Assembly: GCA_002792735.1 (NCBI GenBank)
Contig: PFOW01000055.1
Span: forward strand, 273-64,272
Origin: a bacterium CG_4_10_14_0_2_um_filter_33_32
Lineage (GTDB): Bacteria > Patescibacteriota > CPR2_A > CG2-30-33-46
Direction of reading: 5' to 3'
Length of the DNA stretch: 64,000 nt
A model generated the notes under the pieces. The model was given only the letters and a program-made list of their open reading frames with translations. It had not been told where the DNA came from and ran no database searches. Shown here in pieces: positions 12,028 to 34,737 of the stretch. Each line of letters starts with the position of its first letter. The stretch's first letter is position 1. A program made the position numbers and the translations under genes.

Positions 12028-12542
12028 TGCATAGCCTCTATTCTCCCTGATTTGGTAACAACTATTTTTACAAAACCGGTTTCCTGCTTTCTGGAAATCC
12101 TAAAAGCAATACTGTTAGCACCATCCTGACTTGCTGTTCCATAATTATCCGTTTCTCCAGTTATCTTATTGAAAATTATGAATGATCCTCCACCATTTAT
12201 TGAAAAGTTATCGAATTGTAAGCTAGGCGGTAAATTATAAGATTTTTTAGAAACTGAAGTTTCCCACGGGTCCTCAAAAATTGTAAAAGTATCATTGCCC
12301 TCAATTTTAATACCCCATTTTTTTCCTAATTTCTGACTAATTGAATTTTTCTGGACCTCACGCATAAATGAAATAACTATTTTAGAATTTTCACTTAGTT
12401 CATTACTCTTTTGAAAAGATACATAACCATTTATCATAATAACGGATAATATACCCATTACTGCAACAACTATCAAAACCTCAATCAGCGTGAACCCTGA
12501 TTTATTACCGTGAATATTACTAATTATTTCCTTTATAGACAT
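12024..12542 (-). CDS. type IV pilin / pseudopilin
   Basis: …NKSG|FTLIEVLIVVAVMGILSVI is a canonical class III signal peptide with the GFTLIE motif. Confidence 0.8.
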   Translation of the reverse strand: MSIKEIISNIHGNKSGFTLIEVLIVVAVMGILSVIMINGYVSFQKSNELSENSKIVISFMREVQKNSISQKLGKKWGIKIEGNDTFTIFEDPWETSVSKKSYNLPPSLQFDNFSINGGGSFIIFNKITGETDNYGTASQDGANSIAFRISRKQETGFVKIVVTKSGRIEAMQ

Positions 12543-12552
12543 AATAATAAAA

Positions 12553-13764: not shown

Positions 13765-13765
13765 T

Positions 13766-15472: not shown

Positions 15473-15494
15473 TTATCCTCCTAAAAATTAGAAA

Positions 15495-16094
15495 TTATGC
15501 CGGAACCAAAAAATAAATATTGTATATAAAAATAGGTAATGAAGAAATCAAAAGATATGGATATACGGATAATCTTTCTATGGCTTTACCTTTAATTTTA
15601 TAAAATATATGTGTTATAACCATCATAAAAAGAGCTATCACTATCAATACTATACCTCTATCCCATCCCATCAAAAAAGCAAGTACGAAATAAAACCAAA
15701 TTTCATAAATAGAAATAATTTGTGAATTTCTTTTATAAAGTTTGTATAAAACTAAAGAAAAAACAGTTGCTGAAATAAATGACCAGATAAAATATTCTCC
15801 GAGGTTAAATAAAAAAAGTGATGCTGTGTACTTTGAATCTATAGCTTTAGCCATAAAACTACCAGGTAATTTATAAATCATGATTTGTAAAGTTGTCCAA
15901 TATATCACAAAGCAAAAAGATATAATTAACGAACCATAAGCTAATCGTCTAATCACCCGGGCATCAACAACTTCTCTTCTAAAGAAAAAATGATAACCTA
16001 ATGACAGAATAATAGATAACACCAGTACGGGTTTCCACCAAATAAAAACAGGTGATAAATAAGAAAGAATACCAACGATTTTTTCTAAACTCAT
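15495..16094 (-). CDS. polytopic membrane protein, possibly a short (TadV-like) A24 prepilin peptidase
   Basis: 199 aa with 5-6 TM helices. It sits between the major pilin gene and pilB, the classic pilD position. It has an Asp in the first cytoplasmic loop (EVVDARV) and a G-W-D-R-G segment that might correspond to the GGGD motif. This is weak. Confidence 0.3.
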   Translation of the reverse strand: MSLEKIVGILSYLSPVFIWWKPVLVLSIILSLGYHFFFRREVVDARVIRRLAYGSLIISFCFVIYWTTLQIMIYKLPGSFMAKAIDSKYTASLFLFNLGEYFIWSFISATVFSLVLYKLYKRNSQIISIYEIWFYFVLAFLMGWDRGIVLIVIALFMMVITHIFYKIKGKAIERLSVYPYLLISSLPIFIYNIYFLVPA

Positions 16095-16164
16095 ATTATA
16101 ATTTTAAGCCAAAAGTTTAATTTATTCAATCAGAAACAATAATTTTTATATAAATAATCAGCAT

Positions 16165-16192
16165 TATGAAAACCCCGATCAATATCGGGGTT
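16165..16192 (-). terminator. intrinsic terminator downstream of the major pilin gene
   Basis: 9-bp perfect stem AACCCCGAT/ATCGGGGTT with a 4-nt loop. On the minus sense it is followed by UUUUCAU. Confidence 0.55.
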
Positions 16193-16219
16193 TAAATTCA
16201 GTTTAAGCTATAATGTAGA

Positions 16220-16768
16220 TTAACCCGTGGCAACAGCTAAGTCATTACCTACTTCGTAACGATTTGCGTTATTACCGCCGTCTTTACCGTCTTTATCTTG
16301 AGTTGTTGTGTATTCGGTCGATTCAAAAGCACAGTCAATTTTGTAATGCCCGGCACCATCATGTATAAATCTGTAAAAGCTGGTGACGCTATTCTGTGGG
16401 TCTAATGGCAGGGCGGAAATAGGCGCGCCGGATGATACCGTTGAGAAATCTAACGGTACCCAACCGGTACCTGTATTACTCTGTACAGCCGTACCCGTAG
16501 TTGCCGGGGTAGCAGTTGTAGCATAAACAGTAGTTGTTGCCGCTGTAGCGTAAGTTTCATTCTCAGTAAATGCAGTAAAGGATTTCCCGTCGGTTAAGGC
16601 TAAATTTATGGCTGTTTGGATAGTGCCCATATCCGATATTCTTTGCGAATCACGGCTTTTTTTCATCATTTCAACAGGATTAATAACTAACACAATAACC
16701 GCGGCTAAAATACCGATGATTGCGATAACAACCAAAAGCTCAATTAATGTAAACCCTTTCTTTCCAAT
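16220..16768 (-). CDS. pilA: major type IV pilin (PilA-like); true start upstream of the first canonical start codon
   Basis: An in-frame stop TAA (16783-16781) is followed by ATA CAA AGA AAA ATT GGA AAG AAA GGG TTT ACA TTA ATT GAG, giving (M)QRKIGKKG|FTLIELLVVIAIIGILAAVIV. The first ATG/GTG/TTG (TTG at 16735) lies after the conserved GFTLIE. AGGAGG sits 4 nt before the ATA. The C-terminal half is Thr/Ala-rich. Confidence 0.8.
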   Translation of the reverse strand: MGKKGFTLIELLVVIAIIGILAAVIVLVINPVEMMKKSRDSQRISDMGTIQTAINLALTDGKSFTAFTENETYATAATTTVYATTATPATTGTAVQSNTGTGWVPLDFSTVSSGAPISALPLDPQNSVTSFYRFIHDGAGHYKIDCAFESTEYTTTQDKDGKDGGNNANRYEVGNDLAVATG

Positions 16769-21595: not shown

Positions 21596-21790
21596 TTATT
21601 TCTTTTGCAAAGACTCATAACCTTCAATATCAAAGTGTGCCGGCTGAGATTGATAATCTGTTTTATTGCTAGTAATTAATCTTAATTCTTTAGCAACGAA
21701 AAATATCGAAAAAGAAACAAGACCTATCATAAAAAATATTGTTGTTGATAAAAATATAATTCTAAATTTTCGATTTCCTAAACGATTCAT
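21596..21790 (-). CDS. hypothetical small single-TM protein
   Basis: 64-aa ORF between the PilO-like gene and the PAS gene. One hydrophobic helix. It may be spurious. Confidence 0.25.
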   Translation of the reverse strand: MNRLGNRKFRIIFLSTTIFFMIGLVSFSIFFVAKELRLITSNKTDYQSQPAHFDIEGYESLQKK

Positions 21791-22335
21791 TAATCCCTCG
21801 TATAAACTCTAAACTTAATTATTGCAATAGCTGATAAATCTAATGACCCCTCCGAAGAAGCTGTAATATTTATTGATTCTATGGTTGTATAATATTTAAG
21901 ATTTTCTAAACCGGATAAATACTGATTTATAGCGTTAAGCTTTCCCTTTAAATTAACCTCTAACGCTACATTATTTGTGTCGCTTACTATTTTACTCTTA
22001 GAAGCTTCCTTACCTTCTGTAAAACTAATTGTCTGGGTATTATTGGTTTGGGAAGCTAAAGACTCTAAAGAATCCAAAAACGGACTAAGCTTATCTTTTA
22101 ATGGGAATATTTCGGAAAAAGATATCCAACCCGGTTCCAACTGCTTGTATTCTTTCTCTAAAGCACTTTGAGTTGTTGATTGATGATTTAATGCCTCTTT
22201 AAGCGCCTGTTTTTGTTTTATTTCATTTATATCTCTCTTTACAGCTGAATTAAAATAAAACACAACTAACAAAGAAACTGTTATTGCAAATATTATCTTG
22301 ATTAAAGCAAAATTTAAAGATTTATTTTTTCTCAT
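21790..22335 (-). CDS. PilO-like type IV pilus assembly protein
   Basis: 181 aa with an N-terminal TM helix, a coiled-coil segment and a periplasmic C-terminal domain. It overlaps the PilM/N gene end. The call rests on position and architecture. Confidence 0.4.
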   Translation of the reverse strand: MRKNKSLNFALIKIIFAITVSLLVVFYFNSAVKRDINEIKQKQALKEALNHQSTTQSALEKEYKQLEPGWISFSEIFPLKDKLSPFLDSLESLASQTNNTQTISFTEGKEASKSKIVSDTNNVALEVNLKGKLNAINQYLSGLENLKYYTTIESINITASSEGSLDLSAIAIIKFRVYTRD

Positions 22336-23755
22336 TTTTTCCTGTCTTCAAGGTAATCTTAAAAATTGTATTCTCTTTCTGTGAAATAGATGATAGAGGC
22401 AAATCAATCTCAGAAAAATAAGAAGCTTTTTCAAGATTATCCTTATATTCTAAAACACCCTCTCTTTTGGCTGATATTCCTTCAATAATCAGATTGCTTT
22501 TTGCTGCATCAAATGAAATCTTGGTTAGTCTAACACTGCCTGGTAAATTTCCTAAAGCCACTGAGAATTTTTTTTCAATCTCCTGCTTTGAAGATTCTAA
22601 TTCTTTCATTCTTTTTACTTGATTATTAAAATCCTTTGATTTTTCTTCTAGGCCCTTATAGGCAGGGTTTGTCTTTGTTGCGTTTATTGAAATTCTATTA
22701 TCTAAATCTGCCCTGAATTGATTGAGAAAAAATGCAAAACCTAAAAAAAGCAATAAAATAATAATTACTAAAACGCTAAAAATATTACCAATGGCGTTAT
22801 AAATAAGGAAGCTTTTTTCTTTCTCATACTCCTCTTTAACACCTAAGGGCAAAAGACTAATCTCCGTATCATCTTGCCTGGCCTTAATCCCCCTAAGAGA
22901 AGCTCCTGATAAGCTGAGATTATCAATATCCTTAAGTTCTGGTTTTCTTTCAACTATCTTGATCTTTGCAGACAACTTATTTTCTAATAAACTAATAATT
23001 TTTTTAGCTTCGGAACTACTATCAATATCAAAATGAAAAGAATCCAATATTAACCCCTTTTTATCGGATGTATAAAAATTTAATACTTTAATAATTTCCA
23101 AAACTATATCTTGCAAATAGTTATTAGATTTAATAATCTTACTGCTTTCTACAAATCTTAAGCCTTTCTTTTCATAAACATACAAAGCAAGCTCGCAGTC
23201 ACGGTATATCACTCCTACAAAAGTCTCCTGCTTATCAAGGGCTGTTCTTAAATGAGAAGAAGTGTAAGTCTCAAAAGCATAGGAAATGACTTTTGCTTTT
23301 GTAAATATCCCAACTAATTTGTTTATTAAAAATTTGGAAGAAGTGGATATTAAATATTCTTTTTTATTTCTTTCTCCTCTAACATTCGGTATCTCTTGCC
23401 AATGGATGAGGCTATCCGACTTATCAAAAGGAACATCTAACTCCACGTTTAATTCAATAGCTGATGAAAGTTCTTCCTGCGGAGTGTTTATAGGCACATA
23501 TTCACTGCTGATATAAGATAAATTATCAGGAAAAGTTACAATAATTTCTGATTTTTTAAAAAATGATCTATTTTTCTTATATATAATATTAAGGTTTTTC
23601 TCTAAATTGCTTATGTCTTCATCGTTATTAAAATCATTTATTTTGCATGGATATTTTAAAACATTAGAAAAAATAATAGATTTTTTTCTATTTTCTTTAA
23701 TATTTTGTACGTAAATATTTTCGCCGGTTATTTGTATACCAGTAGCGTACTTCAA
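22322..23755 (-). CDS. PilM-PilN fusion (actin-like PilM domain, TM helix, PilN-like C-terminus)
   Basis: 477 aa. The N-terminal ~320 aa resemble PilM/FtsA-like actin-fold proteins. A TM helix (FSVLVIIILLLFLGFAFFL) is followed by a coiled-coil and periplasmic tail, as in PilN. Confidence 0.55.
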   Translation of the reverse strand: MKYATGIQITGENIYVQNIKENRKKSIIFSNVLKYPCKINDFNNDEDISNLEKNLNIIYKKNRSFFKKSEIIVTFPDNLSYISSEYVPINTPQEELSSAIELNVELDVPFDKSDSLIHWQEIPNVRGERNKKEYLISTSSKFLINKLVGIFTKAKVISYAFETYTSSHLRTALDKQETFVGVIYRDCELALYVYEKKGLRFVESSKIIKSNNYLQDIVLEIIKVLNFYTSDKKGLILDSFHFDIDSSSEAKKIISLLENKLSAKIKIVERKPELKDIDNLSLSGASLRGIKARQDDTEISLLPLGVKEEYEKEKSFLIYNAIGNIFSVLVIIILLLFLGFAFFLNQFRADLDNRISINATKTNPAYKGLEEKSKDFNNQVKRMKELESSKQEIEKKFSVALGNLPGSVRLTKISFDAAKSNLIIEGISAKREGVLEYKDNLEKASYFSEIDLPLSSISQKENTIFKITLKTGKNEKK

Positions 23756-23756
23756 A

Positions 23757-24158
23757 TTATGGAACCTCCTCTTCTTGCCAACTGTCTTGAACTACCTTTC
23801 CATCATTATCAACTGAAACTATAACTTTTATTCTTTTTTTTACGTCATCAACTTGGCTTGAAGAAATTATGGTTGTTTTCCCTGATATTGGCTGATTGCG
23901 CTCAACTGTAATTGTAGCAGAACCTCCAGAAAGCTGCAAAACATAACCAGAGCTCTGAAAGTTCTTATTTCTGGTTACCATTACTAAACCATCTCTCGCC
24001 CCTGCTTCTGCCATAGAAAGAGCTTGTCTGGCCTTTCTATCATTATTGCTTATATTCAGCTCACCAAAAGAAACTGCACCCAAGGTTAAACCTATAACTA
24101 ATAATATACTAGTAACCACTATCGTTGTTATAAGCAATGCTGACCCTTTATTATCCAT
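23757..24158 (-). CDS. PilX-like minor pilin/pilus assembly protein
   Basis: N-terminus MDNKGSALLITTIVVTSILLVIGLTLGAVSFGE resembles PilX-type N-termini (GSALIvaLi.l.vLtllgvs). Confidence 0.35.
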   Translation of the reverse strand: MDNKGSALLITTIVVTSILLVIGLTLGAVSFGELNISNNDRKARQALSMAEAGARDGLVMVTRNKNFQSSGYVLQLSGGSATITVERNQPISGKTTIISSSQVDDVKKRIKVIVSVDNDGKVVQDSWQEEEVP

Positions 24159-24168: not shown

Positions 24169-24708
24169 CTATTTAAGAGAAACTGTTGTTTGGTAATCCT
24201 GAAAAAGAATAATTTCTGTTCCTTTTTTATACTCTATACGAAAATTGATTTGAACTGTGGGCTTTGAACCGGTATTTTTTACCAATCTAAAGTAAGGAAA
24301 ATCACTACCTGTGTTTCTTTTTTTAAAAGATACCGCTTTTGTTGTTAGCTCAGTAGTCTCTAATAAATTGGCGCCTTCATAAATCTTAATAGTGAGAACA
24401 CCCGAATTTATCTCATAAACAGTATCTTTGCCATCGCTCATATGAAGCGATAAAGAATCTGATGTAGGAGAACCTTCGGTGGGCTGATTAACGCTTTCTG
24501 CCTTACCTATGTCCTGATTTAATTTTTCCAGAATAAAACGGCCATTCTGCTGAATTTCAGTAGAAGCAGAGCTTCTATTAGATGCCTTTAGAACCGGATA
24601 AACCATACTCACAACAGCGATTGTAACAAAACCCAAAATAGCTACGTATATTACAAGCTCAATTAAAGTTACCCCTCGTTCCATTGTTTCATTGTTCCAT
24701 TGTTTCAT
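24169..24708 (-). CDS. type IV pseudopilin (PilV/PilW-like)
   Basis: …MERG|VTLIELVIYVAILGFVTIAVV is a canonical prepilin cleavage/methylation motif. Confidence 0.75.
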   Translation of the reverse strand: MKQWNNETMERGVTLIELVIYVAILGFVTIAVVSMVYPVLKASNRSSASTEIQQNGRFILEKLNQDIGKAESVNQPTEGSPTSDSLSLHMSDGKDTVYEINSGVLTIKIYEGANLLETTELTTKAVSFKKRNTGSDFPYFRLVKNTGSKPTVQINFRIEYKKGTEIILFQDYQTTVSLK

Positions 24709-24788: not shown

Positions 24789-24791
24789 ATC

Positions 24792-25122: not shown

Positions 25123-25189
25123 AAAGTTCAGGAATGACAGAAGGAAGACAGAAATGACTATGGGGCACTGTATCAATCTAATAATTGAT

Positions 25190-26032
25190 TCATGGTGAAT
25201 AATTTATTATTACTTTTCCAACAACTGGAGTGCTGTTAGGGTCAGAAGTACTTAAAAGCACTTTATATTTTATATACCTTTCATTATTATGAGTAACGCT
25301 AATTGCTTCTCCTGGCACAGTATAATAGGTAGAAGCAGTTCCGTCTGAACCGACAAAATTCCATGGACCCGAAGAGTTATCAGAAGAAGCAAGCTGTAAT
25401 CTTATATTAGTATTTTCAGGTTTTGAAATAACTTCCCACCATATTGAATTATAAGCAACGCTTACCCCTGTATCATAAACAGAGGAGAAAATCTCTCCAT
25501 TTTCTGCATAATTACCGCTAGGTAATGAATATTTATAAGTTAATATGCATTTGGCGCCAATCAAAGAAACACTGGCTCCGTTGAGATTATAATCAAGCTT
25601 ATATCTATATTGACCGGGATTTGTAAGCATTGGTGGTGAAAATGCGGTTTTGGCATCATAAAGAATAGAAAAATGGGAAGAGTTAGAGTTGGTTTTAACA
25701 TTAAAACTTTTGACATAACTTGCAGAATTAGGATCAACAGTAGGATTGATTTGATAGGCGGTTAAAGTGATAGATAATTGATTTTCGTTTGTCTCCCTAC
25801 TAACACCCGAGAATTCAATAAAAGCACTTTTCATCTCCGGATCTCTTTCGGAAATAAAAACCTCAAATTCAAAAGAACCGCTATCCACTGAATTAGTAAC
25901 ATTTTCCCTCTGCCCAACAAAAAACTTGGTAGTTTTAAGAAGATTAACAGATGAAGCGTTAACCTGAAATGGGAAAAATGTAGTAACAATAAGCACTACA
26001 ATAATAAAATTATTAAATATTTTCTTAAACAA
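25190..26032 (-). CDS. secreted protein paralogous to the C-terminal domain of the adjacent giant protein
   Basis: Signal peptide MFKKIFNNFIIVVLIVTTFFPFQVNA. LKTTKFFVGQRE…EMKSAFIEFSGVS aligns with LKTVELFIGQDT…TIKSAFFEITGVS of the 2404-aa protein. Both end …YSP*. Confidence 0.7.
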   Translation of the reverse strand: MFKKIFNNFIIVVLIVTTFFPFQVNASSVNLLKTTKFFVGQRENVTNSVDSGSFEFEVFISERDPEMKSAFIEFSGVSRETNENQLSITLTAYQINPTVDPNSASYVKSFNVKTNSNSSHFSILYDAKTAFSPPMLTNPGQYRYKLDYNLNGASVSLIGAKCILTYKYSLPSGNYAENGEIFSSVYDTGVSVAYNSIWWEVISKPENTNIRLQLASSDNSSGPWNFVGSDGTASTYYTVPGEAISVTHNNERYIKYKVLLSTSDPNSTPVVGKVIINYSP

Positions 26033-26056
26033 TATATACCTTTTAATAACTAATCT

Positions 26057-29000
26057 TTATGGCGAATAAGTATATGTTAATGTAAGCTTTGCTCCCCAAA
26101 GAGATACATCACCACCATTTCCAACGATGTTAAGATGATAAGCATCTGTTGCCGGATATGTTCCACTATCATTTATAATCCCATAAAAATAAGAAGTAGC
26201 ATCATAATAAGTCTTAAGATAAGAATTGTTTCCAGTGCTTAGATTAAATACTTTTTGATTTGCACTATCTATATCAGTTGTTATTACTAAGGGGTTTGCA
26301 GTTCCTGAAACGCCAGTGATTTCGAAAAAGGCTGATTTAATGGTCGGGTTGCCTTCTGGTATATAGATATTAAATGCAAACCCGCCCGGTACGCCGTTCC
26401 CGCTTGTTCTAGTGTCTGTATCTTGTCCAATAAATAACTCTACTGTTTTTAACGGCCTAGTTGCCAAAGTTACAAAAGAACCATTTTCAGCACAATGTGT
26501 TGGACTATCAACGCTGTTACCACAAATTGCTTCATTTCCTGCCTTATCGATTGCTTTTACTCTGAAATAATATGTTGTTGAGGGTGACAAACCTGTTATA
26601 GTAACAGCTTGCGCCCCAACGCTATAACCACTAGTTGGGTTAGGCTGCAAGGTTCCAGGCCAACTACCTGTTGTATTGTATTCTACTTGTTTTGTAGCGT
26701 CTTCATTAACACTCCAATTAATAGTTGCGGAAACATCAGAAACACCGGATGTAGAAATACCGGTTATAGTAGGAGCTACTGTATCACAATAAAAGTCTTT
26801 GGAATTTACAGGATCACCGCCAAAATTAACCCATGCGCTATCGCCGTTTGCGTTTTTAACTCTAATCCGCCAATGATATTCATTACCATTGACTACCGTA
26901 GCCTGCACCCAGCCATCAACTGTAGTTTTTGGTGTAGGATAACTCACTGACGAACCTAGAATAAGACCATTACCATCAAAAGGAACTCCGTTAGGCTTAA
27001 GCTCAACTTCTGGCGTTAAATTTCCTGCTACCGCAGAATACATATCTGTGTGAAACCAAATATTGGTCTGGTTAATTCCAGATTCAGGTGATAAAGCTGC
27101 GCCACCTTGAGTTTTAGATTGAATAAGATCAGATGGATCAGCCGGAACATTGCTTAAAATAGTAAACCCATTTGATAAAGTACCAACACCCGCTTGGTTC
27201 TTAACATTTACACTATACTGACCTGTTGGCTTACCAGAAAGATTAACCACACATCTTATCTGTATTGCGCTATCCTCATATACTGTATCAGCATTGATCT
27301 GGGTGGGACCTGATAAATAACACTTTGGACTAGATAAATTTACAAAATTATCTCCTGTAATAGTTAGTTGCAAAGCTGTGTCATTTTGTGTTCCTTCTGC
27401 TGGATCTACTCCAGTTACGGTTGGGACAGATGCTGTTATAAAGAAACCAGATGTGCTACCGTCACCCCATTCTGCAACATAACCTTCTGGATTAGTAACA
27501 GTTAATTTCCAATAGCCTATTGTTTTATACACAATATTATAAGCAGCTGACATTGATGTTGCCGATGAAACAGTTATATCGCCATTTGCAGCTACAATAT
27601 CTGACTGACCGGTTTTCACTAACCTTGAATCTGTACTAGCTGTTTTTGGCTGGAAACCTTTACCTGTTATAGTCACCGTAACAGGATTGCTATTTTCAGC
27701 AGTATTAGGATTAATGCCTGTTATTTTTGGTTTAATATCAAAACGAGTATGTGACGCATCTAAGTTGCTTGTTTTACTGTTGGCTGTTACCTGAATTCTG
27801 GCAGCATAATTCACAGGACCACTAGAAGCACCGCTTGGTATATATACCCCTATCTGATTTTCTGCCCAACCATTAAAATCGCCATTTGGGGTTAATAATG
27901 GATTGCCATTAAAATCATTAAACTTAATATTATAAGAAGCAGACGATCTATTCCCAGCTCCTGGATCAGGCCTAAAATGATCACCATCAATAGCTACTAA
28001 GGTTCCGCCTCCAGCGAATCCGCCGGCAACCCCTGTTGTACATCCACTACCACTGCATGTAAATCCTGTTACTCTAGGTAAATAATCAAAAGAATAATTA
28101 TTACTGTTGACTGAATCACTATGCCTTCTTGCGATCAAAGAAACTGAATAACCTGGATCATTTGGCGCTGTTGTTTCAATGGTAGTTGTTAACCAACTTC
28201 CTATTGATGCAACAGTTGATCCAAACATAATTCTGCTGTTTGCTCCTTGTGTACCAAAATGATTACCGTTAATCCTTAAAGTATCCTCATATCTAGCGCC
28301 AGTTACTCCATTCTCAACAGTAATACCATAACCGGATGCTGTAACATCAACTGAAGTTATTTTAGGTAAACAAGTAAAAGACCAATTATTAGTATTTTTA
28401 TCTGGTGCAGGATTTGTTCTTGTAACAACAATGTTGCCAGCCTCATTACCGTCAGGTATAACAGGAACTGCAACGTTTGTAATTTGAGTTCCGCCGGATG
28501 CTCCATAAGATCCGTTTATAGTTGCCGATTCTCCATTTATTACTACACTTCCATTACTGCCAAAATGATCTCCTATTATAGTAATAATATCGCCTTGATA
28601 CGAAGAATTTTGAGTTACGGCATTATTCAAGCTTGTTATTCTTGGAAGTATTAATAGGGTTTTATCATTATTAGATGTTTTAGTATCATTCCTAGTCACA
28701 ACAATCGCGACTGTAATGCCTGAATCATTTGGTAAAGCAAATGATATTGAAGTGGCTCCCCATGTCAAACCGGCTGTAACATCAGTGGTGCCTACAGTAA
28801 CTTTTCCTCCACCTTGAACAGCGCCGAAATGATCACCGGAAATTGTTATAGAATCCCCTACACGTGCTTCTGAAGTTACGGATGTAACCTTAGGAAGAAT
28901 TATCAAAGTGTAATTATTATTACTTGTTTTTGCATCATCTCTAGTAACAACAACTGCCACAGTAATACCCGAATCATTAGGTAAATTTAAAGAAACAGAA

Positions 29001-32000
29001 GTAGTAGACCACGTTAGACCAGAGCTTACATCAGTTGTGCCTATTGTAACTTTACCTGCCCCCTGGGTGGCGCCAAAGTGATTTCCTGAAATTGTTATAG
29101 AATCTCCTACGCGCGCTTCTGAATTTACAGAAGTAATCTGTGGTAAAATCAAAATTGTTTTATCGGTATTTGATGTTTTAGTATCATCCCTGGTTACTTT
29201 AACAGCAACCGTATAACCTGCATCATTTTGGATTTTAACTTGGATAGAATTAGCTCCCCACGATACATAATCACCAGAAGGAACATCAGTTGTGCCAAAG
29301 GTAACTTTACCTGTACCACGAACGGCACCAAAGTGATTACCTGTTAATGTGATCGTATCACCTACCCTTCCTTCTGTTACACTTATACTGGAAAGTTGAG
29401 GAAGAATAAGTAACGTCACATCATTATTACTTGTTTTTAAATCACTATGTCTTGTTGCAACAACTGCTACAGTTGTTCCTGAATCATTGGGAACAGTGGC
29501 AGTAATAGAAGTTTCTGACCATGTACCAATAGTGCCGTCTGTAGAACCGAAAGTTATTTTACTACTAGCACCCTGATTGCCAAAATGATCTCCGGATACT
29601 GTTACAGAACCGCCTACACGAGATTCAGAAGTAACAGAAGTGACTCTTGGTAAAATTAACATTGTCTTATCATTATTAGAATCTTTTAAATCACTATGCC
29701 GTCTTGCAACAACAGCTACGGTATAACTAGGATCATTAGGAACAGTAGCAGTTATAGACCCTTCATTCCAAGTACCTATACCTGCAACAGTAGAGCCTAC
29801 CGTTACCTGGCTTGAAGCACCCTGAGTGCCAAAGTGGTCTCCGGTTAAAGTAATAGTACCTCCTACGCGAGCCTCAGCAGTAACACTGGCAATTCGAGGC
29901 AAAAGGAGAATACTCTTGTCAGTGTTGGATGATTTAGTATCATCTCTGGTTACTTTCACTGCTACCGTATAACCAGAGTCATTTTGAACTTTTACTTGTA
30001 TAGAAGAATCGCCCCAAGAAACATGATCTCCTGCAGGCGCATTAGTTGAACCAAAAGTTACATAACCTGCACCACGAACTGCGCCAAAATGATTTCCAGA
30101 AATAGTTATAGTATCACCAACTCTAGCTTCTGTTACGGATATGCCGGTAACTTGAGGCATAATACTTACGGTTTTATCATTATTAGAAGTTTTTAAGTCT
30201 CCATCTCTTGTTGTTACAACAGCTATTGTTCCGCCTGAATCATTGGGAACTTTTACCTGAAGAGAATTATCTCCCCAAGATACATAATCGCCTCCTGCAA
30301 CATCAGTTGTCCCCATAGTTACTTTTCCATTAGTTCCTTTAGCTGCGCCAAAGTGATTACCTGCAATAGTTACAGTATCACCAACTAGAACATCAGTTGG
30401 AACAATAGACGTTATCTGGGGAAGTATAAGTATCGTTTTATCTGTATTAGATATCTTTGTATCATCCCTGGTTACTTTAATAGCTAGATTGTAAGAAGAA
30501 TCATTTTGAATTTTAACTTGAATAGTTCCGGCATTCCAAGATACATAATCGCCGGATGGAGCAATTATAGAACCAAAAGTAACCGTACCTGCGCCCCGCA
30601 CTGCGCCAAAGTGATTTCCGTTAACTGTAATAGTATCACCCACCCTTCCTTCAGTCTGAGTAATAGAAGTGATTTGGGGCAAAATAGTAAATGTTATATT
30701 GTTATTTGAGGTATCACCACCATTTCTAGTTACTTGAACAGCAACTGTTGTAGCAGCATCATTCGGTACTGTAACTGTTATTGAAGTATCTCCCCATAAG
30801 GTTACTGGTGCTGAAGTTGAGCCGAGCATAACGCTTCCTGTTCCTTGGACTCCCCCAAAATGATCTCCCTGAATAGTAAGCAAATCACCCACCCTGCCTT
30901 CTGTAGGCGATAGTGAAGTGGTAACTCTTGGCAAAATCTTAAAAGCATAACTGTTTGAAGTTTTGGAATCAGAAGACCTTGTTACAACAAAATTTAAAGA
31001 CTGTCCAGAACTTATGGTAGCCGGAATAGTAAAGTTTGAGATCGAAGTATCAGCATAAGTAACCCCCGTAGATGAATTCTGTCCATCTAGTGTTATTGCC
31101 CCGGCAGGACCAAAGTGATCGCCGTTTATAACAACAACATCTCCAATTCTAGCACCTGTGCCTGTTACCGGATTAGTTGAAGTAATCCTTGGCAATATCT
31201 TAAACGTGATACCGTTTGATGTTTTAGTGCCATAAGTCGCATTAGTGGTTATAGTTACTGACCCATCTATTGTTCCAGTAAGAGGTATTGCAACTCCTGT
31301 TATTGAAGTATCGCCCCATGTTCCAGTGGCTGACGCGCCGTTTATGGAGATTGTTCCGGCAGATACACCTAAATGATTACCGTTAATTGTAATAGTATCA
31401 CCCACTCTTGCTTCTGTTACTGACAGAGAAGTGATCTGCGGCAAAACAGTAAAACCATAAACCGGCGAATTTTGAACTGCCCCAACCGTAATAGACATCC
31501 CGCCGGTATTTATAGTGGCATCAGAAGGAACCGATACTCCAGAGATTGAAGTGTTTGTCCAAGTAACACCAGGGGTAGATTCAGTAATTGCAGTTCCGTT
31601 ATTATTAATGTAAAGGGTTCCTGCTGTTCCAAAACCATATCCGGAAATTGTTATAGTTGCTCCCTGAAGAGCCTCTGTTGGTGTTGGCGCAATGATTTTA
31701 GGCCGCACAGTAAATGAACTTGCATAAGTAATTGCTGTTGCTCCAAATATAGCGTCTGTAATTGTTAAATTAACATTCCAGACTCCCCCGTAAGCAGCTG
31801 TTGGACCAGGCGTTGCATTATTTAAATTAAATGAACCGCCAGTAATGCTATTTTTATTAGATAAAGAAAAACTAGATCCCGTAACTGTTTGAGTGCCTAA
31901 AGTTAAGGTTACAGAAGAAACAGATTGGAAACCTGATCCGGTTAATGAAATACCTGAATATGTTGACCCTGAATCTCCGCTTGTAGTTGAAATTGCCGTA

Positions 32001-33271
32001 ACTTTTGGCAAAATTTGGAAGTTTTGGTTATTATTGGAAGTTTTGGTTATGGGAGCTGTTATTGAGACGATAACTGTTCCAGAAATTGTATCCGGCACTG
32101 TAAAGGTAACTGAAGTTTCAGTGCTGCCTCCTCCAATTGTTGCTGATACTCCATTAATTGTCATAGTCCTTGTTGTGCCTAAATGATCTCCTGTGATTGT
32201 GGCTGTAACATCCCCCACTGTTTTACCAGCACCAACCCCTGTTATATTTGGATAAACATAAAAAGTCAGAAGCGAGGTATCTGCTACACCTCCAGCCGTT
32301 ACTAAAAGACCATTATTAGTTACACCACCATAAGACATACAAGCAGCCGGTATAGTAAAAACAATTTGTGTATCACTCCAAGAACTTATATCTGCATCCG
32401 GTATTTGATACCCACCAGAACCTCCGATTTTTATATTATCAGTAACCGTTGATCGATTTCCTGCCCCAGGATCAGCACCAAAACCAGTTCCTGTAATTGT
32501 TATTTGCTGTAAGGAACGACCTCCGTCGGTTATTGTCCCATCAGTATTATTTGTAAAAGATGTTGCATCTGGATTAGCAACTGCCAAAGTATAATCAATA
32601 GCAAAAACAAGGGTATCCATTCTTACTTCGGTTGATGCAGAATTGTTATTCCCAGAATTAACATCAGAGCGCATCCTTATAGTTACGTTTATATTAGAAG
32701 CCTGATAAGCAGAACTTACTGTTTTTGCTCCATCAACATCTCTAGTAACCCAAGAACTTGAAGTCGGATCAAATTCTGTTTCTAAGTCAACTAAGCCATC
32801 AAACACACCTGTTGTATCGACACCATCATAAATTTTCAGGCCTACTGATTGAGTTGATGCATGTGTTTCTTGAAAAAGCTTAACATCAAAGCTTCCATTA
32901 ACATTATTTACAGTAGCACCTGCGGGTACTCCCATATCTTCCCATGTAAGAGTCTTTTTAAAATAACCTAAATTCTTTTTATTCCTAGCAGTAACTTTAG
33001 CAAAAAGAGAACCAGAAGGATTACCGTCTGTTCCTAAATAGCCTTGTGTACAAGTACCCGTACATGATTCATCAACATAAGTAAAACCTTCGATGCTAGT
33101 AGCAAAGTTAACCGTATAATTTTGAACTGCTGCACGAACAGGTGTTACTGATTGTCTAAACAAAAATGGTACAAAAAAAGAACCTAAAAATCCAAAAATA
33201 ATTAATAAAATCGATATTTTGGTAAAATATCTTAAAAAATGCTTTTTATTTTTCTTTATAAACAAAACCAT
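26057..33271 (-). CDS. giant (2404 aa) secreted/cell-surface protein with ~19 tandem IPT/TIG-like Ig-fold repeats, an FN3 domain and a distinct C-terminal domain
   Basis: N-terminal signal-anchor. The repeated ~85-aa unit is ILPQITSI…EGRVGDTITxNGNHFGAxRGxGxVTFG…VKVxNDxxxxVAVKVTRDDTKxSN. It has FN3-like INWSVNE…YYFRVKAIDKAGNE. It is a single uninterrupted ORF. Confidence 0.85.
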   Translation of the reverse strand: MVLFIKKNKKHFLRYFTKISILLIIFGFLGSFFVPFLFRQSVTPVRAAVQNYTVNFATSIEGFTYVDESCTGTCTQGYLGTDGNPSGSLFAKVTARNKKNLGYFKKTLTWEDMGVPAGATVNNVNGSFDVKLFQETHASTQSVGLKIYDGVDTTGVFDGLVDLETEFDPTSSSWVTRDVDGAKTVSSAYQASNINVTIRMRSDVNSGNNNSASTEVRMDTLVFAIDYTLAVANPDATSFTNNTDGTITDGGRSLQQITITGTGFGADPGAGNRSTVTDNIKIGGSGGYQIPDADISSWSDTQIVFTIPAACMSYGGVTNNGLLVTAGGVADTSLLTFYVYPNITGVGAGKTVGDVTATITGDHLGTTRTMTINGVSATIGGGSTETSVTFTVPDTISGTVIVSITAPITKTSNNNQNFQILPKVTAISTTSGDSGSTYSGISLTGSGFQSVSSVTLTLGTQTVTGSSFSLSNKNSITGGSFNLNNATPGPTAAYGGVWNVNLTITDAIFGATAITYASSFTVRPKIIAPTPTEALQGATITISGYGFGTAGTLYINNNGTAITESTPGVTWTNTSISGVSVPSDATINTGGMSITVGAVQNSPVYGFTVLPQITSLSVTEARVGDTITINGNHLGVSAGTISINGASATGTWGDTSITGVAIPLTGTIDGSVTITTNATYGTKTSNGITFKILPRITSTNPVTGTGARIGDVVVINGDHFGPAGAITLDGQNSSTGVTYADTSISNFTIPATISSGQSLNFVVTRSSDSKTSNSYAFKILPRVTTSLSPTEGRVGDLLTIQGDHFGGVQGTGSVMLGSTSAPVTLWGDTSITVTVPNDAATTVAVQVTRNGGDTSNNNITFTILPQITSITQTEGRVGDTITVNGNHFGAVRGAGTVTFGSIIAPSGDYVSWNAGTIQVKIQNDSSYNLAIKVTRDDTKISNTDKTILILPQITSIVPTDVLVGDTVTIAGNHFGAAKGTNGKVTMGTTDVAGGDYVSWGDNSLQVKVPNDSGGTIAVVTTRDGDLKTSNNDKTVSIMPQVTGISVTEARVGDTITISGNHFGAVRGAGYVTFGSTNAPAGDHVSWGDSSIQVKVQNDSGYTVAVKVTRDDTKSSNTDKSILLLPRIASVTAEARVGGTITLTGDHFGTQGASSQVTVGSTVAGIGTWNEGSITATVPNDPSYTVAVVARRHSDLKDSNNDKTMLILPRVTSVTSESRVGGSVTVSGDHFGNQGASSKITFGSTDGTIGTWSETSITATVPNDSGTTVAVVATRHSDLKTSNNDVTLLILPQLSSISVTEGRVGDTITLTGNHFGAVRGTGKVTFGTTDVPSGDYVSWGANSIQVKIQNDAGYTVAVKVTRDDTKTSNTDKTILILPQITSVNSEARVGDSITISGNHFGATQGAGKVTIGTTDVSSGLTWSTTSVSLNLPNDSGITVAVVVTRDDAKTSNNNYTLIILPKVTSVTSEARVGDSITISGDHFGAVQGGGKVTVGTTDVTAGLTWGATSISFALPNDSGITVAIVVTRNDTKTSNNDKTLLILPRITSLNNAVTQNSSYQGDIITIIGDHFGSNGSVVINGESATINGSYGASGGTQITNVAVPVIPDGNEAGNIVVTRTNPAPDKNTNNWSFTCLPKITSVDVTASGYGITVENGVTGARYEDTLRINGNHFGTQGANSRIMFGSTVASIGSWLTTTIETTAPNDPGYSVSLIARRHSDSVNSNNYSFDYLPRVTGFTCSGSGCTTGVAGGFAGGGTLVAIDGDHFRPDPGAGNRSSASYNIKFNDFNGNPLLTPNGDFNGWAENQIGVYIPSGASSGPVNYAARIQVTANSKTSNLDASHTRFDIKPKITGINPNTAENSNPVTVTITGKGFQPKTASTDSRLVKTGQSDIVAANGDITVSSATSMSAAYNIVYKTIGYWKLTVTNPEGYVAEWGDGSTSGFFITASVPTVTGVDPAEGTQNDTALQLTITGDNFVNLSSPKCYLSGPTQINADTVYEDSAIQIRCVVNLSGKPTGQYSVNVKNQAGVGTLSNGFTILSNVPADPSDLIQSKTQGGAALSPESGINQTNIWFHTDMYSAVAGNLTPEVELKPNGVPFDGNGLILGSSVSYPTPKTTVDGWVQATVVNGNEYHWRIRVKNANGDSAWVNFGGDPVNSKDFYCDTVAPTITGISTSGVSDVSATINWSVNEDATKQVEYNTTGSWPGTLQPNPTSGYSVGAQAVTITGLSPSTTYYFRVKAIDKAGNEAICGNSVDSPTHCAENGSFVTLATRPLKTVELFIGQDTDTRTSGNGVPGGFAFNIYIPEGNPTIKSAFFEITGVSGTANPLVITTDIDSANQKVFNLSTGNNSYLKTYYDATSYFYGIINDSGTYPATDAYHLNIVGNGGDVSLWGAKLTLTYTYSP

Positions 33272-33335: not shown

Positions 33336-33968
33336 TCATTTTTCTGCATTGACGGTCATACCGCCTTTATTATAGGAAATTGTCCAGAGCCATTTTTTTG
33401 CGTTGGAATCAAAACTTAAATCCATTGATTCAATTTTAAAATCTTTTTTCTCGCCAACTACAGACTCCACGCTTTTGTATACTTCCGCACTGTTTTTCCA
33501 CTCACCTTTTAACATATCTTTTATTATTGGCTTATCTTCTTCAGCTGATCTTATTTCGCCGTCTTTTACATAAATTTCATATGATTTGTCTTTATTCTTA
33601 GAATAAAACGTTAAGCCCCAGCCGGTTGCTTTCCCTTCCTTATTCACTTCACTTACCTTAGATGTAATTCTTTGGAGTTCTGCATCGGCAGACCAGACAC
33701 GTGCCTTTGTAAAGGATAAATCATATGCTTCCTTGGCTGTTGAGTCTGGGGTTATTTTTGTGAGACGGTTTTCAACCGAGTTTTTCCCTGATCTAAAACC
33801 CGAATAAAAACCAATAGTACAAGAAATAATCAAAACAATAATTAATGCAAAAATTGAAAATATATTAAATTTTGAAGTAATAATCTGTATATAGTCCGTT
33901 TTTACCATACCAGAATCTTTTTGTACTAAGTCTATTTTTTTACTTCTTCTAATTTTAATATCTTCCAT
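33336..33968 (-). CDS. membrane-anchored hypothetical protein (tandem paralog A)
   Basis: 210 aa with an N-terminal TM helix and an extracytoplasmic domain: WGLTFYSKNKDKSYEIYVKDGEI…KKWLWTISYNKGGMTVNAEK. Confidence 0.55.
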   Translation of the reverse strand: MEDIKIRRSKKIDLVQKDSGMVKTDYIQIITSKFNIFSIFALIIVLIISCTIGFYSGFRSGKNSVENRLTKITPDSTAKEAYDLSFTKARVWSADAELQRITSKVSEVNKEGKATGWGLTFYSKNKDKSYEIYVKDGEIRSAEEDKPIIKDMLKGEWKNSAEVYKSVESVVGEKKDFKIESMDLSFDSNAKKWLWTISYNKGGMTVNAEK

Positions 33969-33969: not shown

Positions 33970-34572
33970 TTATTTCTCCGCTATTACGGTTATATTTCCT
34001 TTTTTATAATTTACAGACCAAATCCATTTATGTTCGTTTTTGAAATAACTAAGATTCAGATCTTTTATATCAGGTGATTCATCCCCTGAAGAATTTAAAA
34101 CTCTTTCTAAAACTATGGGAGAATCTAGCCATGCTCCCTTTAAAGTGTCAGTAACCGCTAGAGCGATACCTTGCGAACTTGCAATATTGCCGTCTTTAAT
34201 CAAAACCTTATATCCGCTTTTTGATTTTACTGAATAAAAAGCCATTTCCCAGCTTGAGGATTTACCGTCATTATCAACACTTGGGGCAATAAGCCTAATT
34301 GAAGCTAAGCCGGCATCATCCTGCCAAGCCTTTGCCTTTACCATGGCTACTTTATAAGCTTCATTGGCCGTTAAAAGAGTATCCGAGATATCAAATATTT
34401 TTTTTACGTCACCTTGGCCTTTTTGCAAACCGAAACTATAACCGGCTAATAATCCGGAAGTAATGCCCAAGAAAACAATGGCAACCGTATAAATTATCAG
34501 CACTTTTTTGTTAATAGAAAAAGCCTTGTCTTGGTTATTTAAACCCTGATTTTGATTATTTTTAGTTACCAC
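33970..34572 (-). CDS. membrane-anchored hypothetical protein (tandem paralog B)
   Basis: 200 aa with the same architecture as 33336..33968: WEMAFYSVKSKSGYKVLIKDGNI…HKWIWSVNYKKGNITVIAEK. Confidence 0.55.
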   Translation of the reverse strand: MVTKNNQNQGLNNQDKAFSINKKVLIIYTVAIVFLGITSGLLAGYSFGLQKGQGDVKKIFDISDTLLTANEAYKVAMVKAKAWQDDAGLASIRLIAPSVDNDGKSSSWEMAFYSVKSKSGYKVLIKDGNIASSQGIALAVTDTLKGAWLDSPIVLERVLNSSGDESPDIKDLNLSYFKNEHKWIWSVNYKKGNITVIAEK

Positions 34573-34700: not shown

Positions 34701-34737
34701 GATTGACGAAACACGCTACTTGCACTATTCTAAGAAT

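What the first reader, a model, noticed from the sequence alone, without database searches (positions are those of the whole stretch)
25190..33271. 2404-aa IPT/TIG-repeat surface protein plus a paralog of its C-terminal domain, encoded inside/upstream of the type IV pilus operon
A single 7.2-kb ORF has a signal-anchor, about 19 tandem Ig-like repeats of ~85 aa, an FN3 domain and a ~200-aa C-terminal domain. The next gene (25190..26032) is a secreted 280-aa protein homologous to that C-terminal domain, and both polypeptides end in YSP. Both are co-oriented and contiguous with pilMNO/pseudopilin genes. This suggests a pilus-associated or cell-surface adhesin module, plausibly for attachment by a reduced-genome symbiont. 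The shared C-terminal domain could be an anchoring or partner-recognition module.
Basis: partly seen in the sequence, partly recalled or inferred. Interest (0 to 1): 0.7.

Follow-up and report, generated by a model that had tools for sequence, protein, structure and literature searches.

The report
Giant adhesin module of CPR pili
A 2,404-residue surface protein and its small neighbour belong to a three-gene set I found no description of, which sits inside the type IV pilus gene clusters of many ultra-small (Patescibacteria/CPR) bacteria and probably attaches interchangeable adhesins to the pilus, so it is a concrete candidate for how these symbionts grip their hosts.

Summary
The 2,404-aa ORF (26057-33271, minus strand) has a leader, an unknown 190-aa head domain, 20 IPT/TIG repeats, an Ig-like domain, an FN3 and a 137-aa terminal domain ("CTD"). 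The 280-aa neighbour shares that CTD (38% identity, E=2e-16), but only in its N-terminal half. Its C-terminal half is a second, unrelated jelly-roll domain ("NWSP").

Neither domain has a Pfam or PDB relative. A CTD profile finds 235 cluster representatives. In 80 Patescibacteria genomes the NWSP gene lies in a type IV pilus cluster (78/80). It usually sits directly upstream of minor-pilin genes (60/80). In at least 8 species NWSP is fused to the full-length minor pilin x212.

Where CTD occurs, three genes travel together:
- a large protein with a variable N-terminus and a conserved Ig-FN3-CTD foot; the window's giant is one of these
- a single-pass membrane protein; the window has two copies
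- CTD-(CTD)-NWSP

Best reading: a pilus-borne adhesin system analogous to PilY1 but not homologous to it. The 280-aa protein would act as adaptor and the giant as a variable adhesin. Pilus linkage is well supported. The adaptor mechanism is inferred. This is a new variant of a known kind.

The parts
26057..33271 (-). Giant 2404-aa secreted protein ('X-CTD' type): leader, head domain, 20 TIG repeats, Ig-like domain, FN3, CTD
   Evidence: ORF and translation. Pfam TIG and fn3 hits. Annotated 'hypothetical protein' in NCBI records for bacterium CG2_30_33_46.
33131..33271 (-). N-terminal leader (residues 1-47): basic stretch, long hydrophobic segment, then ...PVRAA/VQ. It is Sec-type or a signal anchor, with no prepilin motif.
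   Evidence: Read directly from the sequence. X-CTD proteins of other loci carry similar long leaders ending in A-x-A-A.
32567..33136 (-). Head domain (residues 46-235) of unknown family, shared only with CPR2-type orthologues and a few other proteins
   Evidence: Aligns to P0006, P0011, P0012, P0027-P0029 and P0082. No Pfam or PDB sequence relative. Absent from the X-CTD proteins of the other lineages.
27155..32572 (-). Array of 20 IPT/TIG-like Ig repeats of about 83-96 aa each (residues 234-2039), read as a stalk
   Evidence: Pfam TIG E=3.8e-100. Repeat boundaries and self-profile count. The CPR2 GW2011_GWC1_41_48 orthologue of 449 aa has no such array.
26060..27178 (-). Conserved C-terminal cassette (residues 2032-2404): Ig-like 'YHWR' domain, FN3 (26531-26764) and CTD (26060-26470)
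   Evidence: Aligns contiguously to the last ~370 aa of the large proteins in at least 20 other Patescibacteria T4P loci, E 1e-20 to 1e-35. An FN3-like Pfam hit lies just before the CTD in 6 of 6 tested.
25190..26032 (-). 280-aa secreted protein: signal peptide (25955-26032), CTD-like domain (25523-25957, residues 26-170) and NWSP domain (25193-25528, residues 169-280)
   Evidence: BLASTP to the giant's CTD. Domain profiles. AF2 model with pLDDT 88.5 shows two all-beta jelly-roll domains. No Pfam family.
33970..34572 (-). TM200: single-pass membrane protein with a ~140-aa outside domain. Members of its family co-occur strictly with CTD.
   Evidence: Translation. 23-member alignment. Present in 20 of 22 CTD-positive loci and 0 of 33 CTD-negative loci. 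No Pfam or PDB relative.
33336..33968 (-). TM210: paralogue of TM200, about 30% identical
24169..24708 (-). Minor prepilin pp179 (N_methyl motif RGVTLIELV)
   Evidence: Pfam N_methyl. Follows the CTD-NWSP gene in relatives. Present in 22 of 22 CTD-positive loci and 12 of 33 CTD-negative loci.
23757..24158 (-). PilX_N-type minor pilin (133 aa)
   Evidence: Pfam PF14341, 27.2 bits.
21790..23755 (-). PilM-PilN fusion (22322-23755) and PilO (21790-22335), pilus alignment proteins
   Evidence: Weak Pfam hits to PilM_2, PilN and PilO. The same genes are conserved in relatives.
11389..12027 (-). x212: minor pilin (class III signal QG/SLLAEAL). In at least 8 other species its full length is fused to the NWSP domain.
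   Evidence: Translation. Fusion proteins align to x212 positions ~6-205 and then carry NWSP.
12024..16735 (-). Rest of the pilus cluster: prepilin (12024-12542), PilC (12553-13764), PilB (13766-15472), membrane protein x199 (15495-16094), probable major pilin (16220-16735)
   Evidence: Pfam T2SSF, T2SSE and N_methyl hits. Translations. N_methyl is called on the longer form of the pilin gene.

Best explanation
The giant protein, the 280-aa protein and the two TM200-like membrane proteins form an accessory module of the type IV pilus (T4P) of Patescibacteria.

Proposed roles:
- **Giant.** It is a fibrillar adhesin. It has a lineage-specific head (residues 46-235) and a length-variable stalk (20 TIG repeats). 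Its conserved Ig-FN3-CTD foot is the attachment end.
- **280-aa protein.** It is an adaptor. Its NWSP jelly-roll associates with the minor-pilin complex that primes and caps the pilus, most likely next to minor pilin x212. Its CTD-like domain pairs with the giant's CTD.
- **TM200-like proteins.** They hold these non-pilin subunits at the membrane until they are loaded. A single-membrane cell with no periplasm would need such a tether.

Functionally this parallels PilY1/PilC with minor pilins, but uses unrelated domains.

What is shown:
- domain architecture
- reality and spread of the two domain families
- conserved position inside T4P clusters
- x212-NWSP fusions
- co-occurrence of the three genes

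What is inferred:
- physical presence on the pilus
- the CTD-CTD contact
- the tether role
- adhesion to a host
For: 1. **Synteny.** The two closest relatives keep [X-CTD]-[CTD-NWSP]-prepilin-PilX_N-PilMN-PilO. Of 80 genome loci with NWSP, 78 carry pilin-like genes and 66 carry core T4P genes. In 60 the NWSP gene is directly followed by a minor pilin.
2. **Fusion evidence.** In at least 8 species the full-length minor pilin x212 is fused to NWSP. In four more, NWSP sits in a long prepilin. NWSP is therefore carried by pilins elsewhere.
3. **A constant foot with variable remainder.**
   - The giant's residues 2032-2404 align to the C-terminus of large proteins in at least 20 T4P loci.
   - The heads differ between lineages.
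   - The closest CPR2 orthologue is only 449 aa, with the same head and CTD and no TIG array. Length is therefore free, as expected for a stalk.
4. **The genes travel together.** 19 of 23 CTD-NWSP loci also hold a separate X-CTD protein over 300 aa, and 19 hold a TM200-like gene. L036, scored as lacking X-CTD, proved to have an 1835-aa one below my threshold. The other three are cut near the contig end. TM200-like genes occur in 20 of 22 CTD-positive loci and 0 of 33 CTD-negative loci.
5. **The two CTD paralogues are old and kept distinct.** The nearest neighbour of an X-type CTD is X-type in 22 of 24 cases. For the NWSP-adjacent type it is the same type in 21 of 25. This fits heterotypic partners.
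6. **CTDs occur head-to-tail in one chain.** Examples are CTD-CTD-NWSP and CTDx4, so CTD-CTD juxtaposition is a natural state.
7. **Both proteins are exported non-pilins.** They have signal peptides and no prepilin motif.
8. **Literature.** T4P mediate host binding in cultured Saccharibacteria, where modular PilX1 (jelly-roll) and PilX2 (propeller) were proposed as PilY1-like adhesins (PMC12206443). T4P genes are essential in Southlakia (PMC10633639).
Against: - There is no experimental or structural evidence for any contact. I could not run a complex prediction.
- CTD is not exclusive to T4P loci. CTDx4 proteins sit in a different conserved neighbourhood with no T4P gene detected. CTD may therefore be a general stacking module rather than a pilus dock.
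- In this window x212 lies 13 kb from the 280-aa gene, and a GIY-YIG gene interrupts the operon.
- The 80 loci were retrieved through an NWSP motif, so their statistics bear on NWSP first and on CTD second. The species are related, so the counts are not independent events.
- Promoter and terminator scans were uninformative.
Confidence: 0.5

Rival explanations
1. A cell-surface fibril, not a pilus-borne one. The TM200-like proteins are the permanent membrane anchors. They bind the CTDs, so the giant and the 280-aa protein stand on the cell surface. They are encoded with T4P only because the two systems act in sequence: pili tether and retract, then the surface adhesin locks on.
For: TM200-like proteins co-occur strictly with CTD, 20 of 22 loci against 0 of 33, and usually lie between the two CTD genes. 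The window has two TM200 paralogues and two CTD proteins. CTD also occurs outside T4P loci. A two-step 'tether then close-range adhesin' model has been proposed for Saccharibacteria (PMC12206443).
Against: NWSP, the partner domain of CTD in the 280-aa protein, is fused to genuine full-length minor pilins in other species. The gene always sits between minor-pilin genes rather than at the cluster edge.
Confidence: 0.27
2. Two independent tip modules. CTD itself is the domain that docks onto minor pilins, with the X-type and the NWSP-adjacent type each binding a different pilin. NWSP would be a lectin-like binding head rather than a dock. The giant and the 280-aa protein would then be two separate adhesins on the same tip, with no adaptor relationship.
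Against: NWSP is one of the most conserved sequences in the cluster across hosts and habitats. That fits an internal partner better than a host ligand. NWSP is always C-terminal behind variable N-terminal parts such as Kelch, NHL and WAWND repeats, which is the pattern of a dock.
Confidence: 0.18
3. A structural part of the pilus machine. The CTD and NWSP proteins would build a passage or collar through the wall or S-layer, standing in for the secretin that a single-membrane cell lacks. They would not be adhesins.
For: The genes are conserved within T4P clusters of many Patescibacteria. CTD arrays of fixed copy number such as CTDx4 could form rings or stacks.
Against: The large protein varies from 449 to 2404 aa between close relatives and changes its whole N-terminal part between lineages. 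That is unlike a machine part of fixed geometry. About a third of pilus clusters with NWSP have no CTD at all.
Confidence: 0.05

Closest known systems
PilY1 (Pseudomonas, Myxococcus) and PilC (Neisseria), non-pilin tip adhesins of type IVa pili
   Same: A large exported non-pilin encoded among minor-pilin genes. The N-terminal part is variable and the C-terminal domain is conserved, and that domain is thought to dock on the minor-pilin priming or tip complex. (Properties of PilY1 are from established knowledge and from PMC12206443, citing Treuner-Lange 2020.) The gene position and the variable-N, conserved-C pattern are shown here.
   Different: There is no PilY1/PilC beta-propeller. No such Pfam hit was found, and the conserved domain is a ~137-aa jelly-roll. 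The system needs a second protein sharing the same domain, plus a dedicated single-pass membrane protein. The organism is probably single-membraned, which is my inference from knowledge of CPR.
Modular minor pilins carrying extra domains: TM7x PilX1 (jelly-roll) and PilX2 (beta-propeller), Streptococcus sanguinis PilB and PilC
   Same: An extra binding domain is displayed through the minor-pilin set. In other Patescibacteria the NWSP domain is literally the C-terminal module of minor pilin x212 or of a long prepilin. PilX2 is needed for host binding in TM7x (PMC12206443).
   Different: In this window NWSP is not on a pilin. It sits on a signal-peptide protein behind a CTD. I could not test whether TM7x PilX1's jelly-roll is the NWSP domain, because no TM7x sequence was at hand.
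Giant Ig-repeat fibrillar adhesins (Bap, SiiE and LapA types, and IPT/TIG-rich surface proteins)
   Same: A long array of Ig-like repeats acts as a stalk between an anchoring end and a distal binding domain. TIG and fn3 membership was tested and met.
   Different: There is no LPXTG, RTX/T1SS or SLH anchoring signal. The anchoring end is a new domain shared with the neighbouring gene, and the gene is embedded in a pilus cluster.
Adaptor subunits of chaperone-usher pili (for example PapF and PapK linking the adhesin to the rod). This is an analogy only.
   Same: The logic is the same: a small subunit sharing a fold with its partner joins the adhesin to the fibre.
   Different: The machinery is unrelated, with no homology and no donor-strand evidence here. 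The analogy comes from general knowledge and was not tested.

Membership tests
IPT/TIG repeat proteins (Pfam PF01833) | Match to the TIG profile above the gathering score | tested here: met
   328.5 bits against a cutoff of 20.9, in 13 stretches. A self-profile finds 20 repeats.
Fibronectin type III (PF00041) | Match above the gathering score | tested here: met
   32.7 bits against a cutoff of 25, residues 2170-2247. The same position before the CTD is occupied in 6 of 6 other X-CTD proteins.
PilY1/PilC tip adhesins | C-terminal PilY1/PilC beta-propeller domain | tested here: not met
   No such Pfam hit in the giant or the 280-aa protein at E<=0.01. The shared domain is modelled as a jelly-roll sandwich.
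PilY1/PilC tip adhesins | Exported non-pilin encoded within the minor-pilin gene set, with a variable N-terminus and a conserved C-terminus | tested here: met
   Gene order. Conserved last ~370 aa with differing heads.
PilY1/PilC tip adhesins | Physical association with the minor pilins at the pilus tip | not testable with these tools
   Needs pilus preparations, imaging or complex prediction.
Type IV (minor) pilins | Class III signal peptide (G/[FS]xLxE) followed by a hydrophobic alpha-1 helix | tested here: not met
   The giant and the 280-aa protein have ordinary leaders, and the prepilin regex did not flag them. x212, pp179 and the 172-aa prepilin do carry the motif.
Sortase-anchored (LPXTG) adhesins | C-terminal LPXTG, hydrophobic segment and basic tail | tested here: not met
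   The giant ends ...KLTLTYTYSP and the 280-aa protein ends ...VIINYSP.
TM7x PilX1-type modular minor pilin (PMC12206443) | Pilin 'lollipop' N-terminal helix plus a C-terminal beta-jelly-roll | tested here: inconclusive
   The 280-aa protein has jelly-rolls but no pilin domain. x212-NWSP fusions in other species do fit the description. A direct comparison with the TM7x PilX1 sequence was not possible.
CTD family (defined here; no Pfam model) | ~130-140-aa domain with K-T-x-x-F-x-x-G-Q near its start, S-A-F-x-E-x-x-G-V in the middle and A-K-L-x-L-T-Y-x-Y at its end | tested here: met
   Alignments A1 and A2. 235 representatives match. Giant residues 2268-2404 and 280-aa protein residues 26-170 both score. 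No Pfam family matches in 50 members, and there is no PDB relative.
NWSP family (defined here; no Pfam model) | ~110-125-aa C-terminal domain with F-D-T-G, G-P-W-x-F-x-G, H-N-N-x-R-Y-F-R-Y-K and a terminal N-W/Y-S/A-P | tested here: met
   Alignment A6. Residues 169-280 of the 280-aa protein. No Pfam or PDB relative.

The most novel reading that the evidence does not exclude
CTD, NWSP and the TM200-like protein together define a pilus-tip docking system that is widespread in Patescibacteria and that I found no description of. A non-pilin adaptor (CTD-NWSP) plugs into minor pilin x212. It recruits interchangeable, lineage-specific giant adhesins through a heterotypic CTD-CTD handshake. A dedicated membrane tether stands in for the periplasm that diderm bacteria use to stage PilY1. 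The variable heads would then be the host-range determinants of these episymbionts.
Probability: 0.3. Interest if true: 0.8.

Novelty: new variant of a known kind. Interest (0 to 1): 0.62.

Why it matters
How ultra-small Patescibacteria recognise and hold their hosts is an open question. [quoted passage not shown] T4P are known to be required, but the adhesive parts are only guessed at for a few Saccharibacteria.

This finding gives three things:
- a conserved three-gene accessory module inside the pilus clusters of many lineages
- two unmodelled domain families that can be turned into profiles for annotation
- a clear prediction that the variable heads of the large X-CTD proteins are the specificity determinants and the CTD/NWSP pair is the attachment device

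All of this can be tested with recombinant domains, complex prediction and pilus proteomics. It would allow host-range candidates to be read directly from metagenomes.

Tried and rejected
- **Profile search.** A word-index search with the CTD alignment returned nothing and wasted one search. The exhaustive profile search worked.
- I used an NWSP-rich alignment instead, so those loci are selected on NWSP, not on CTD.
- **afdb50 unavailable.**
- **Fold searches.** They gave only generic jelly-roll and double-jelly-roll matches. I draw no functional conclusion from them.
- **First AF2 run.** With 9 sequences it reached only pLDDT 60.8. I replaced it with a 50-sequence run.
- **CTD and NWSP as diverged copies of one domain.** Rejected: hhalign probability 0.3%.
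- **TM200-like outer domain as PepSY-like.** This was my impression from the sequence. No Pfam or PDB match supports it, so I do not claim it.
- **Head domain as a known carbohydrate-binding module.** There is no Pfam hit and only chance PDB hits.
- **Recent repeat expansion.** There is no DNA-level tandem repeat.
- **Promoter and terminator scan.** Counts equal the shuffled expectation, so it says nothing about operon structure.
- **CTD copy number fixed per locus.** Rejected: loci hold 2, 3 or 5 copies.
- **Giant and 280-aa gene as one split ORF.** Rejected: the giant ends with the family-typical terminal Pro, and the 280-aa protein has its own signal peptide and a weak AAGG upstream of its TTG start.


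Full report
**Source.** The window is contig MNYB01000050.1 of assembly GCA_001872935.1. The same sequence recurs in many ENA, JGI and Logan assemblies. NCBI names the organism 'bacterium CG2_30_33_46' and calls both proteins 'hypothetical protein'. The nearest relatives of the two proteins are from candidate division CPR2. GC content is about 0.29-0.40.

**Checking the observation.** The two ORFs are exactly where stated: 26057-33271(-) encodes 2404 aa and 25190-26032(-) encodes 280 aa.

The giant reads as follows.
- Pfam finds IPT/TIG at E=3.8e-100 and fn3 at residues 2170-2247.
- A profile built from eleven clear repeats finds 20 TIG-like units between residues 234 and 2039.
- The repeats are diverged (35-77% identity) and leave no DNA-level tandem repeat.

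The giant's last 130 residues align with residues 32-169 of the 280-aa protein at 38% identity, E=2e-16. The similarity is real.

It needs four corrections.
- The shared domain ('CTD') is about 137 aa, not about 200.
- It covers only the N-terminal half of the small protein.
- The small protein's C-terminal half (residues 169-280, 'NWSP') is a different domain (hhalign probability 0.3%).
- A GIY-YIG gene separates the small gene from the pilin genes.

**The neighbourhood.** In order of transcription on the minus strand:

| Gene | Coordinates | Note |
|---|---|---|
| TM200 | 33970-34572 | single-pass membrane protein |
| TM210 | 33336-33968 | paralogue of TM200 |
| giant | 26057-33271 | |
| 280-aa protein | 25190-26032 | |
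| GIY-YIG | 24792-25082 | |
| pp179 | 24169-24708 | prepilin |
| PilX_N pilin | 23757-24158 | |
| PilM-PilN fusion | 22322-23755 | |
| PilO | 21790-22335 | |
| PAS / histidine kinase / response regulator | 16811-21531 | three genes |
| probable major pilin | 16220-16735 | |
| x199 | 15495-16094 | membrane protein |
| PilB | 13766-15472 | |
| PilC | 12553-13764 | |
| 172-aa prepilin | 12024-12542 | |
| x212 | 11389-12027 | minor pilin |

These assignments rest. x212 has a clear class III signal (QG/SLLAEAL) and is therefore a fourth minor pilin.

**Close relatives.**
- In CPR2 GW2011_GWC1_41_48 the order [X-CTD]-[CTD-NWSP]-prepilin-PilX_N-PilMN-PilO-PAS-HK-RR-pilin-PilB-PilC is kept. The 'giant' there has only 449 aa, with the same head domain, one Ig-like domain and the same CTD.
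- A second relative, 60% identical in the small protein, has a TIG-rich orthologue.
- The TIG array is therefore a dispensable spacer. The GIY-YIG gene is an insertion peculiar to this genome.

**The two domain families.**
- *CTD.* A profile searched against 1.84 billion cluster representatives finds 235 proteins at E<=1e-3 and 113 at E<=1e-10.
- *Recurrent architectures*:
  - signal peptide-CTD-NWSP (about 280 aa)
  - signal peptide-CTD-CTD-NWSP (about 430 aa)
  - four tandem CTDs, with or without very long tails
  - a CTD at the extreme C-terminus of proteins of 900-2200 aa, which is the giant's type
  - stand-alone CTDs
- *No known relatives.* None of 50 family members matches a Pfam family through either domain. 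Neither profile finds a solved structure.
- *Predicted structure.* An AlphaFold2 model of the 280-aa protein built on a 50-sequence alignment has mean pLDDT 88.5 and shows two all-beta domains.

**Wider synteny.** Using the NWSP motif [NH]N[KQ]R[YF][FL][RK]YK, 80 loci were retrieved from a one-genome-per-species collection. Nearly all carry Patescibacteria or CPR-lineage titles. A few are labelled Gammaproteobacteria or Ignavibacteriaceae, or simply 'bacterium'. I called ORFs and labelled them with profiles and with the window's own pilus proteins.

- 78 of 80 loci carry pilin-like genes.
- 66 carry PilB, PilC, PilMN or PilO.
- In 60 the NWSP gene is directly followed by pp179, PilX_N or another prepilin.
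- The common order is pilin-PilB-PilC-prepilin-x212-[X-CTD]-[TM200-like]-[CTD-(CTD)-NWSP]-pp179-PilX_N-PilMN-PilO.
- The window is a rearranged copy of this order.
- Of 23 loci with CTD-NWSP, 19 also hold a separate large X-CTD protein and 19 hold a TM200-like gene.
  - L036, scored as lacking X-CTD, has an 1835-aa one that fell below my threshold.
  - The other three are cut near the contig end.
- Among 55 loci that include PilX_N, TM200-like genes occur in 20 of 22 CTD-positive loci and in 0 of 33 CTD-negative loci.
- In the same set, pp179 occurs in 22 of 22 CTD-positive loci and 12 of 33 CTD-negative loci.

**What is constant and what varies.**
- The giant's residues 2032-2404 (Ig-like 'YHWR' domain, FN3, CTD) align in one piece to the C-terminal ~370 residues of the large proteins in at least 20 of these loci.
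- Six such proteins from different lineages have no Pfam hit other than the FN3-like domain just before the CTD.
- The giant's head domain is found only in CPR2-type orthologues and a few others and has no known relative.
- This is the pattern of an adhesin family: a fixed attachment end and an exchangeable working end.

**Link to the pilus fibre.**
- In at least 8 species the full length of minor pilin x212 (positions ~6-205 of 212) is fused to NWSP. The fusion is direct in some and runs through an inserted domain, such as NHL repeats, in others.
- In four other loci NWSP lies within a ~600-aa prepilin.
- In many loci the gene after x212 encodes a signal peptide, then WAWND repeats, then NWSP.
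- NWSP is thus always the C-terminal module behind variable parts, and it is sometimes physically part of a pilin.
- This is the strongest argument that the 280-aa protein associates with the minor-pilin complex.

**The two CTD copies.** CTDs sort by position rather than by genome.
- The nearest neighbour of an X-type CTD in another locus is X-type in 22 of 24 cases.
- For the NWSP-adjacent type it is the same type in 21 of 25 cases.
- The median score of an X-type CTD is 32 bits against CTDs of its own locus and 150 bits against the best X-type elsewhere.
- The duplication is old and both copies have been kept. This fits two different, complementary roles, and CTDs do lie head-to-tail in single chains.

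**Proposed mechanism.**
- *Shown:* everything above.
- *Inferred:*
  - The minor pilins (172-aa prepilin, x212, pp179, PilX_N) prime the pilus.
  - NWSP of the 280-aa protein binds this complex near x212.
  - The protein's CTD pairs with the giant's CTD, so the giant's stalk and head project from the tip.
  - TM200 and TM210 keep the two non-pilin proteins at the membrane until loading. A single-membrane cell has no periplasm to hold them.
  - The PAS-kinase-regulator block inside the cluster may regulate the system.
- *Confidence:* I put about 0.75 on 'pilus-associated surface or adhesin module' and about 0.4-0.5 on the adaptor mechanism as stated.

**Rivals.**
- *Surface fibril held by the TM200-like anchors.* This explains the strict TM200-CTD co-occurrence and the presence of CTD outside pilus loci, but not the pilin-NWSP fusions.
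- *Two independent tip modules, with CTD as the pilin dock and NWSP as a lectin-like head.* This fits the pp179 co-occurrence and the aromatic and polar invariant residues of NWSP. It fits less well with NWSP's extreme conservation and its fixed C-terminal position.
- *A structural collar.* This is unlikely given the 449-to-2404-aa length range.

**Comparison with known systems.**
- Functionally the closest is PilY1/PilC with the minor pilins.
- Membership fails on the defining beta-propeller.
- The modular minor pilins PilX1 and PilX2 of Saccharibacterium TM7x (PMC12206443) are the closest precedent within the phylum. PilX1's jelly-roll may be NWSP, but I could not test this.
- My literature searches found no paper describing the CTD domain, the TM200-like protein or the three-gene module.

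**Verdict.** I rate it a new variant of a known kind: a pilus-associated adhesin system built from unmodelled domains. Interest is 0.62.

Noticed in passing
window 24792-25082 (-), flanks about 24765-24790 and 25100-25125: A 96-aa GIY-YIG gene sits between the 280-aa gene and the first prepilin gene and is absent from that spot in both relatives. GC-rich hairpins flank it (cattcctgcgaaggcaggaatcc upstream, ggattcccgcttgcgcgggaatg downstream). It looks like a small mobile insertion inside the operon.
   Followed up: partly
window 34720-35406 (+): An IS200-like Y1 transposase gene (Pfam Y1_Tnp, 33.8 bits) lies on the opposite strand just upstream of the module. A GC-rich hairpin sits at 35445-35459.
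   Followed up: no
window 16811-21531 (-); L007, L010: A PAS sensor, a histidine kinase and a response regulator are embedded in the pilus cluster, and both CPR2-type relatives keep them there. In one ENA sample (L001) the PAS gene is split into 330-aa and 306-aa pieces.
   Followed up: no
L096, L099, L100, L102-L104 (metagenome loci); proteins P0030, P0036, P0039, P0040, P0044: Proteins with four tandem, position-specific CTDs sit in a different conserved neighbourhood. It holds an 808-aa CarboxypepD_reg/TIG/Big protein, a 264-aa ParA/MinD-like ATPase, the CTDx4 protein (some with 2000-aa tails) and a 411-aa NPCBM_assoc protein. No T4P genes were detected. CTD is therefore not exclusive to pilus loci.
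   Followed up: partly
window 25190-25198 and 26057-26068; family-wide: Both domain families end at the very C-terminus in x-Pro. Proteins ending in NWSP finish SP or AP in 42 of 48 representatives and 63 of 75 loci. X-CTD proteins of T4P loci finish x-P in 22 of 23. The two domains are not detectably homologous, and I have no explanation.
   Followed up: partly
window 15495-16094 (-): A 199-aa polytopic membrane protein lies between the pilin gene and PilB and has no Pfam hit. No Peptidase_A24 prepilin peptidase turned up among the ORFs I scanned with Pfam (window 941-44494). This could be a divergent one.
   Followed up: no
L012, L017, L018, L026, L030, L033, L035, L044, L059 (N-termini of X-CTD proteins): The large X-CTD proteins share an unusually long leader of 60-90 aa. 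It runs: hydrophobic helix, FSNLP(F/Y), NIVDKFW...NVVD, then K(I)KEAQAA. The window's giant has a shorter version ending PVRAA.
   Followed up: no
L019, L021, L025, L032, L037, L039, L043: In many loci the gene after minor pilin x212 encodes a signal peptide, three or four WAWNDxIGWIxF repeats and then NWSP (about 290 aa), in place of CTD-NWSP. These loci lack CTD, TM200-like and mostly pp179.
   Followed up: partly
window 21531-21790 region; L001 14243-14437, L007 13723-13914, L010 7097-7288: A 63-64-aa ORF directly after PilO is called in all three CPR2-type genomes. I did not examine it.
   Followed up: no
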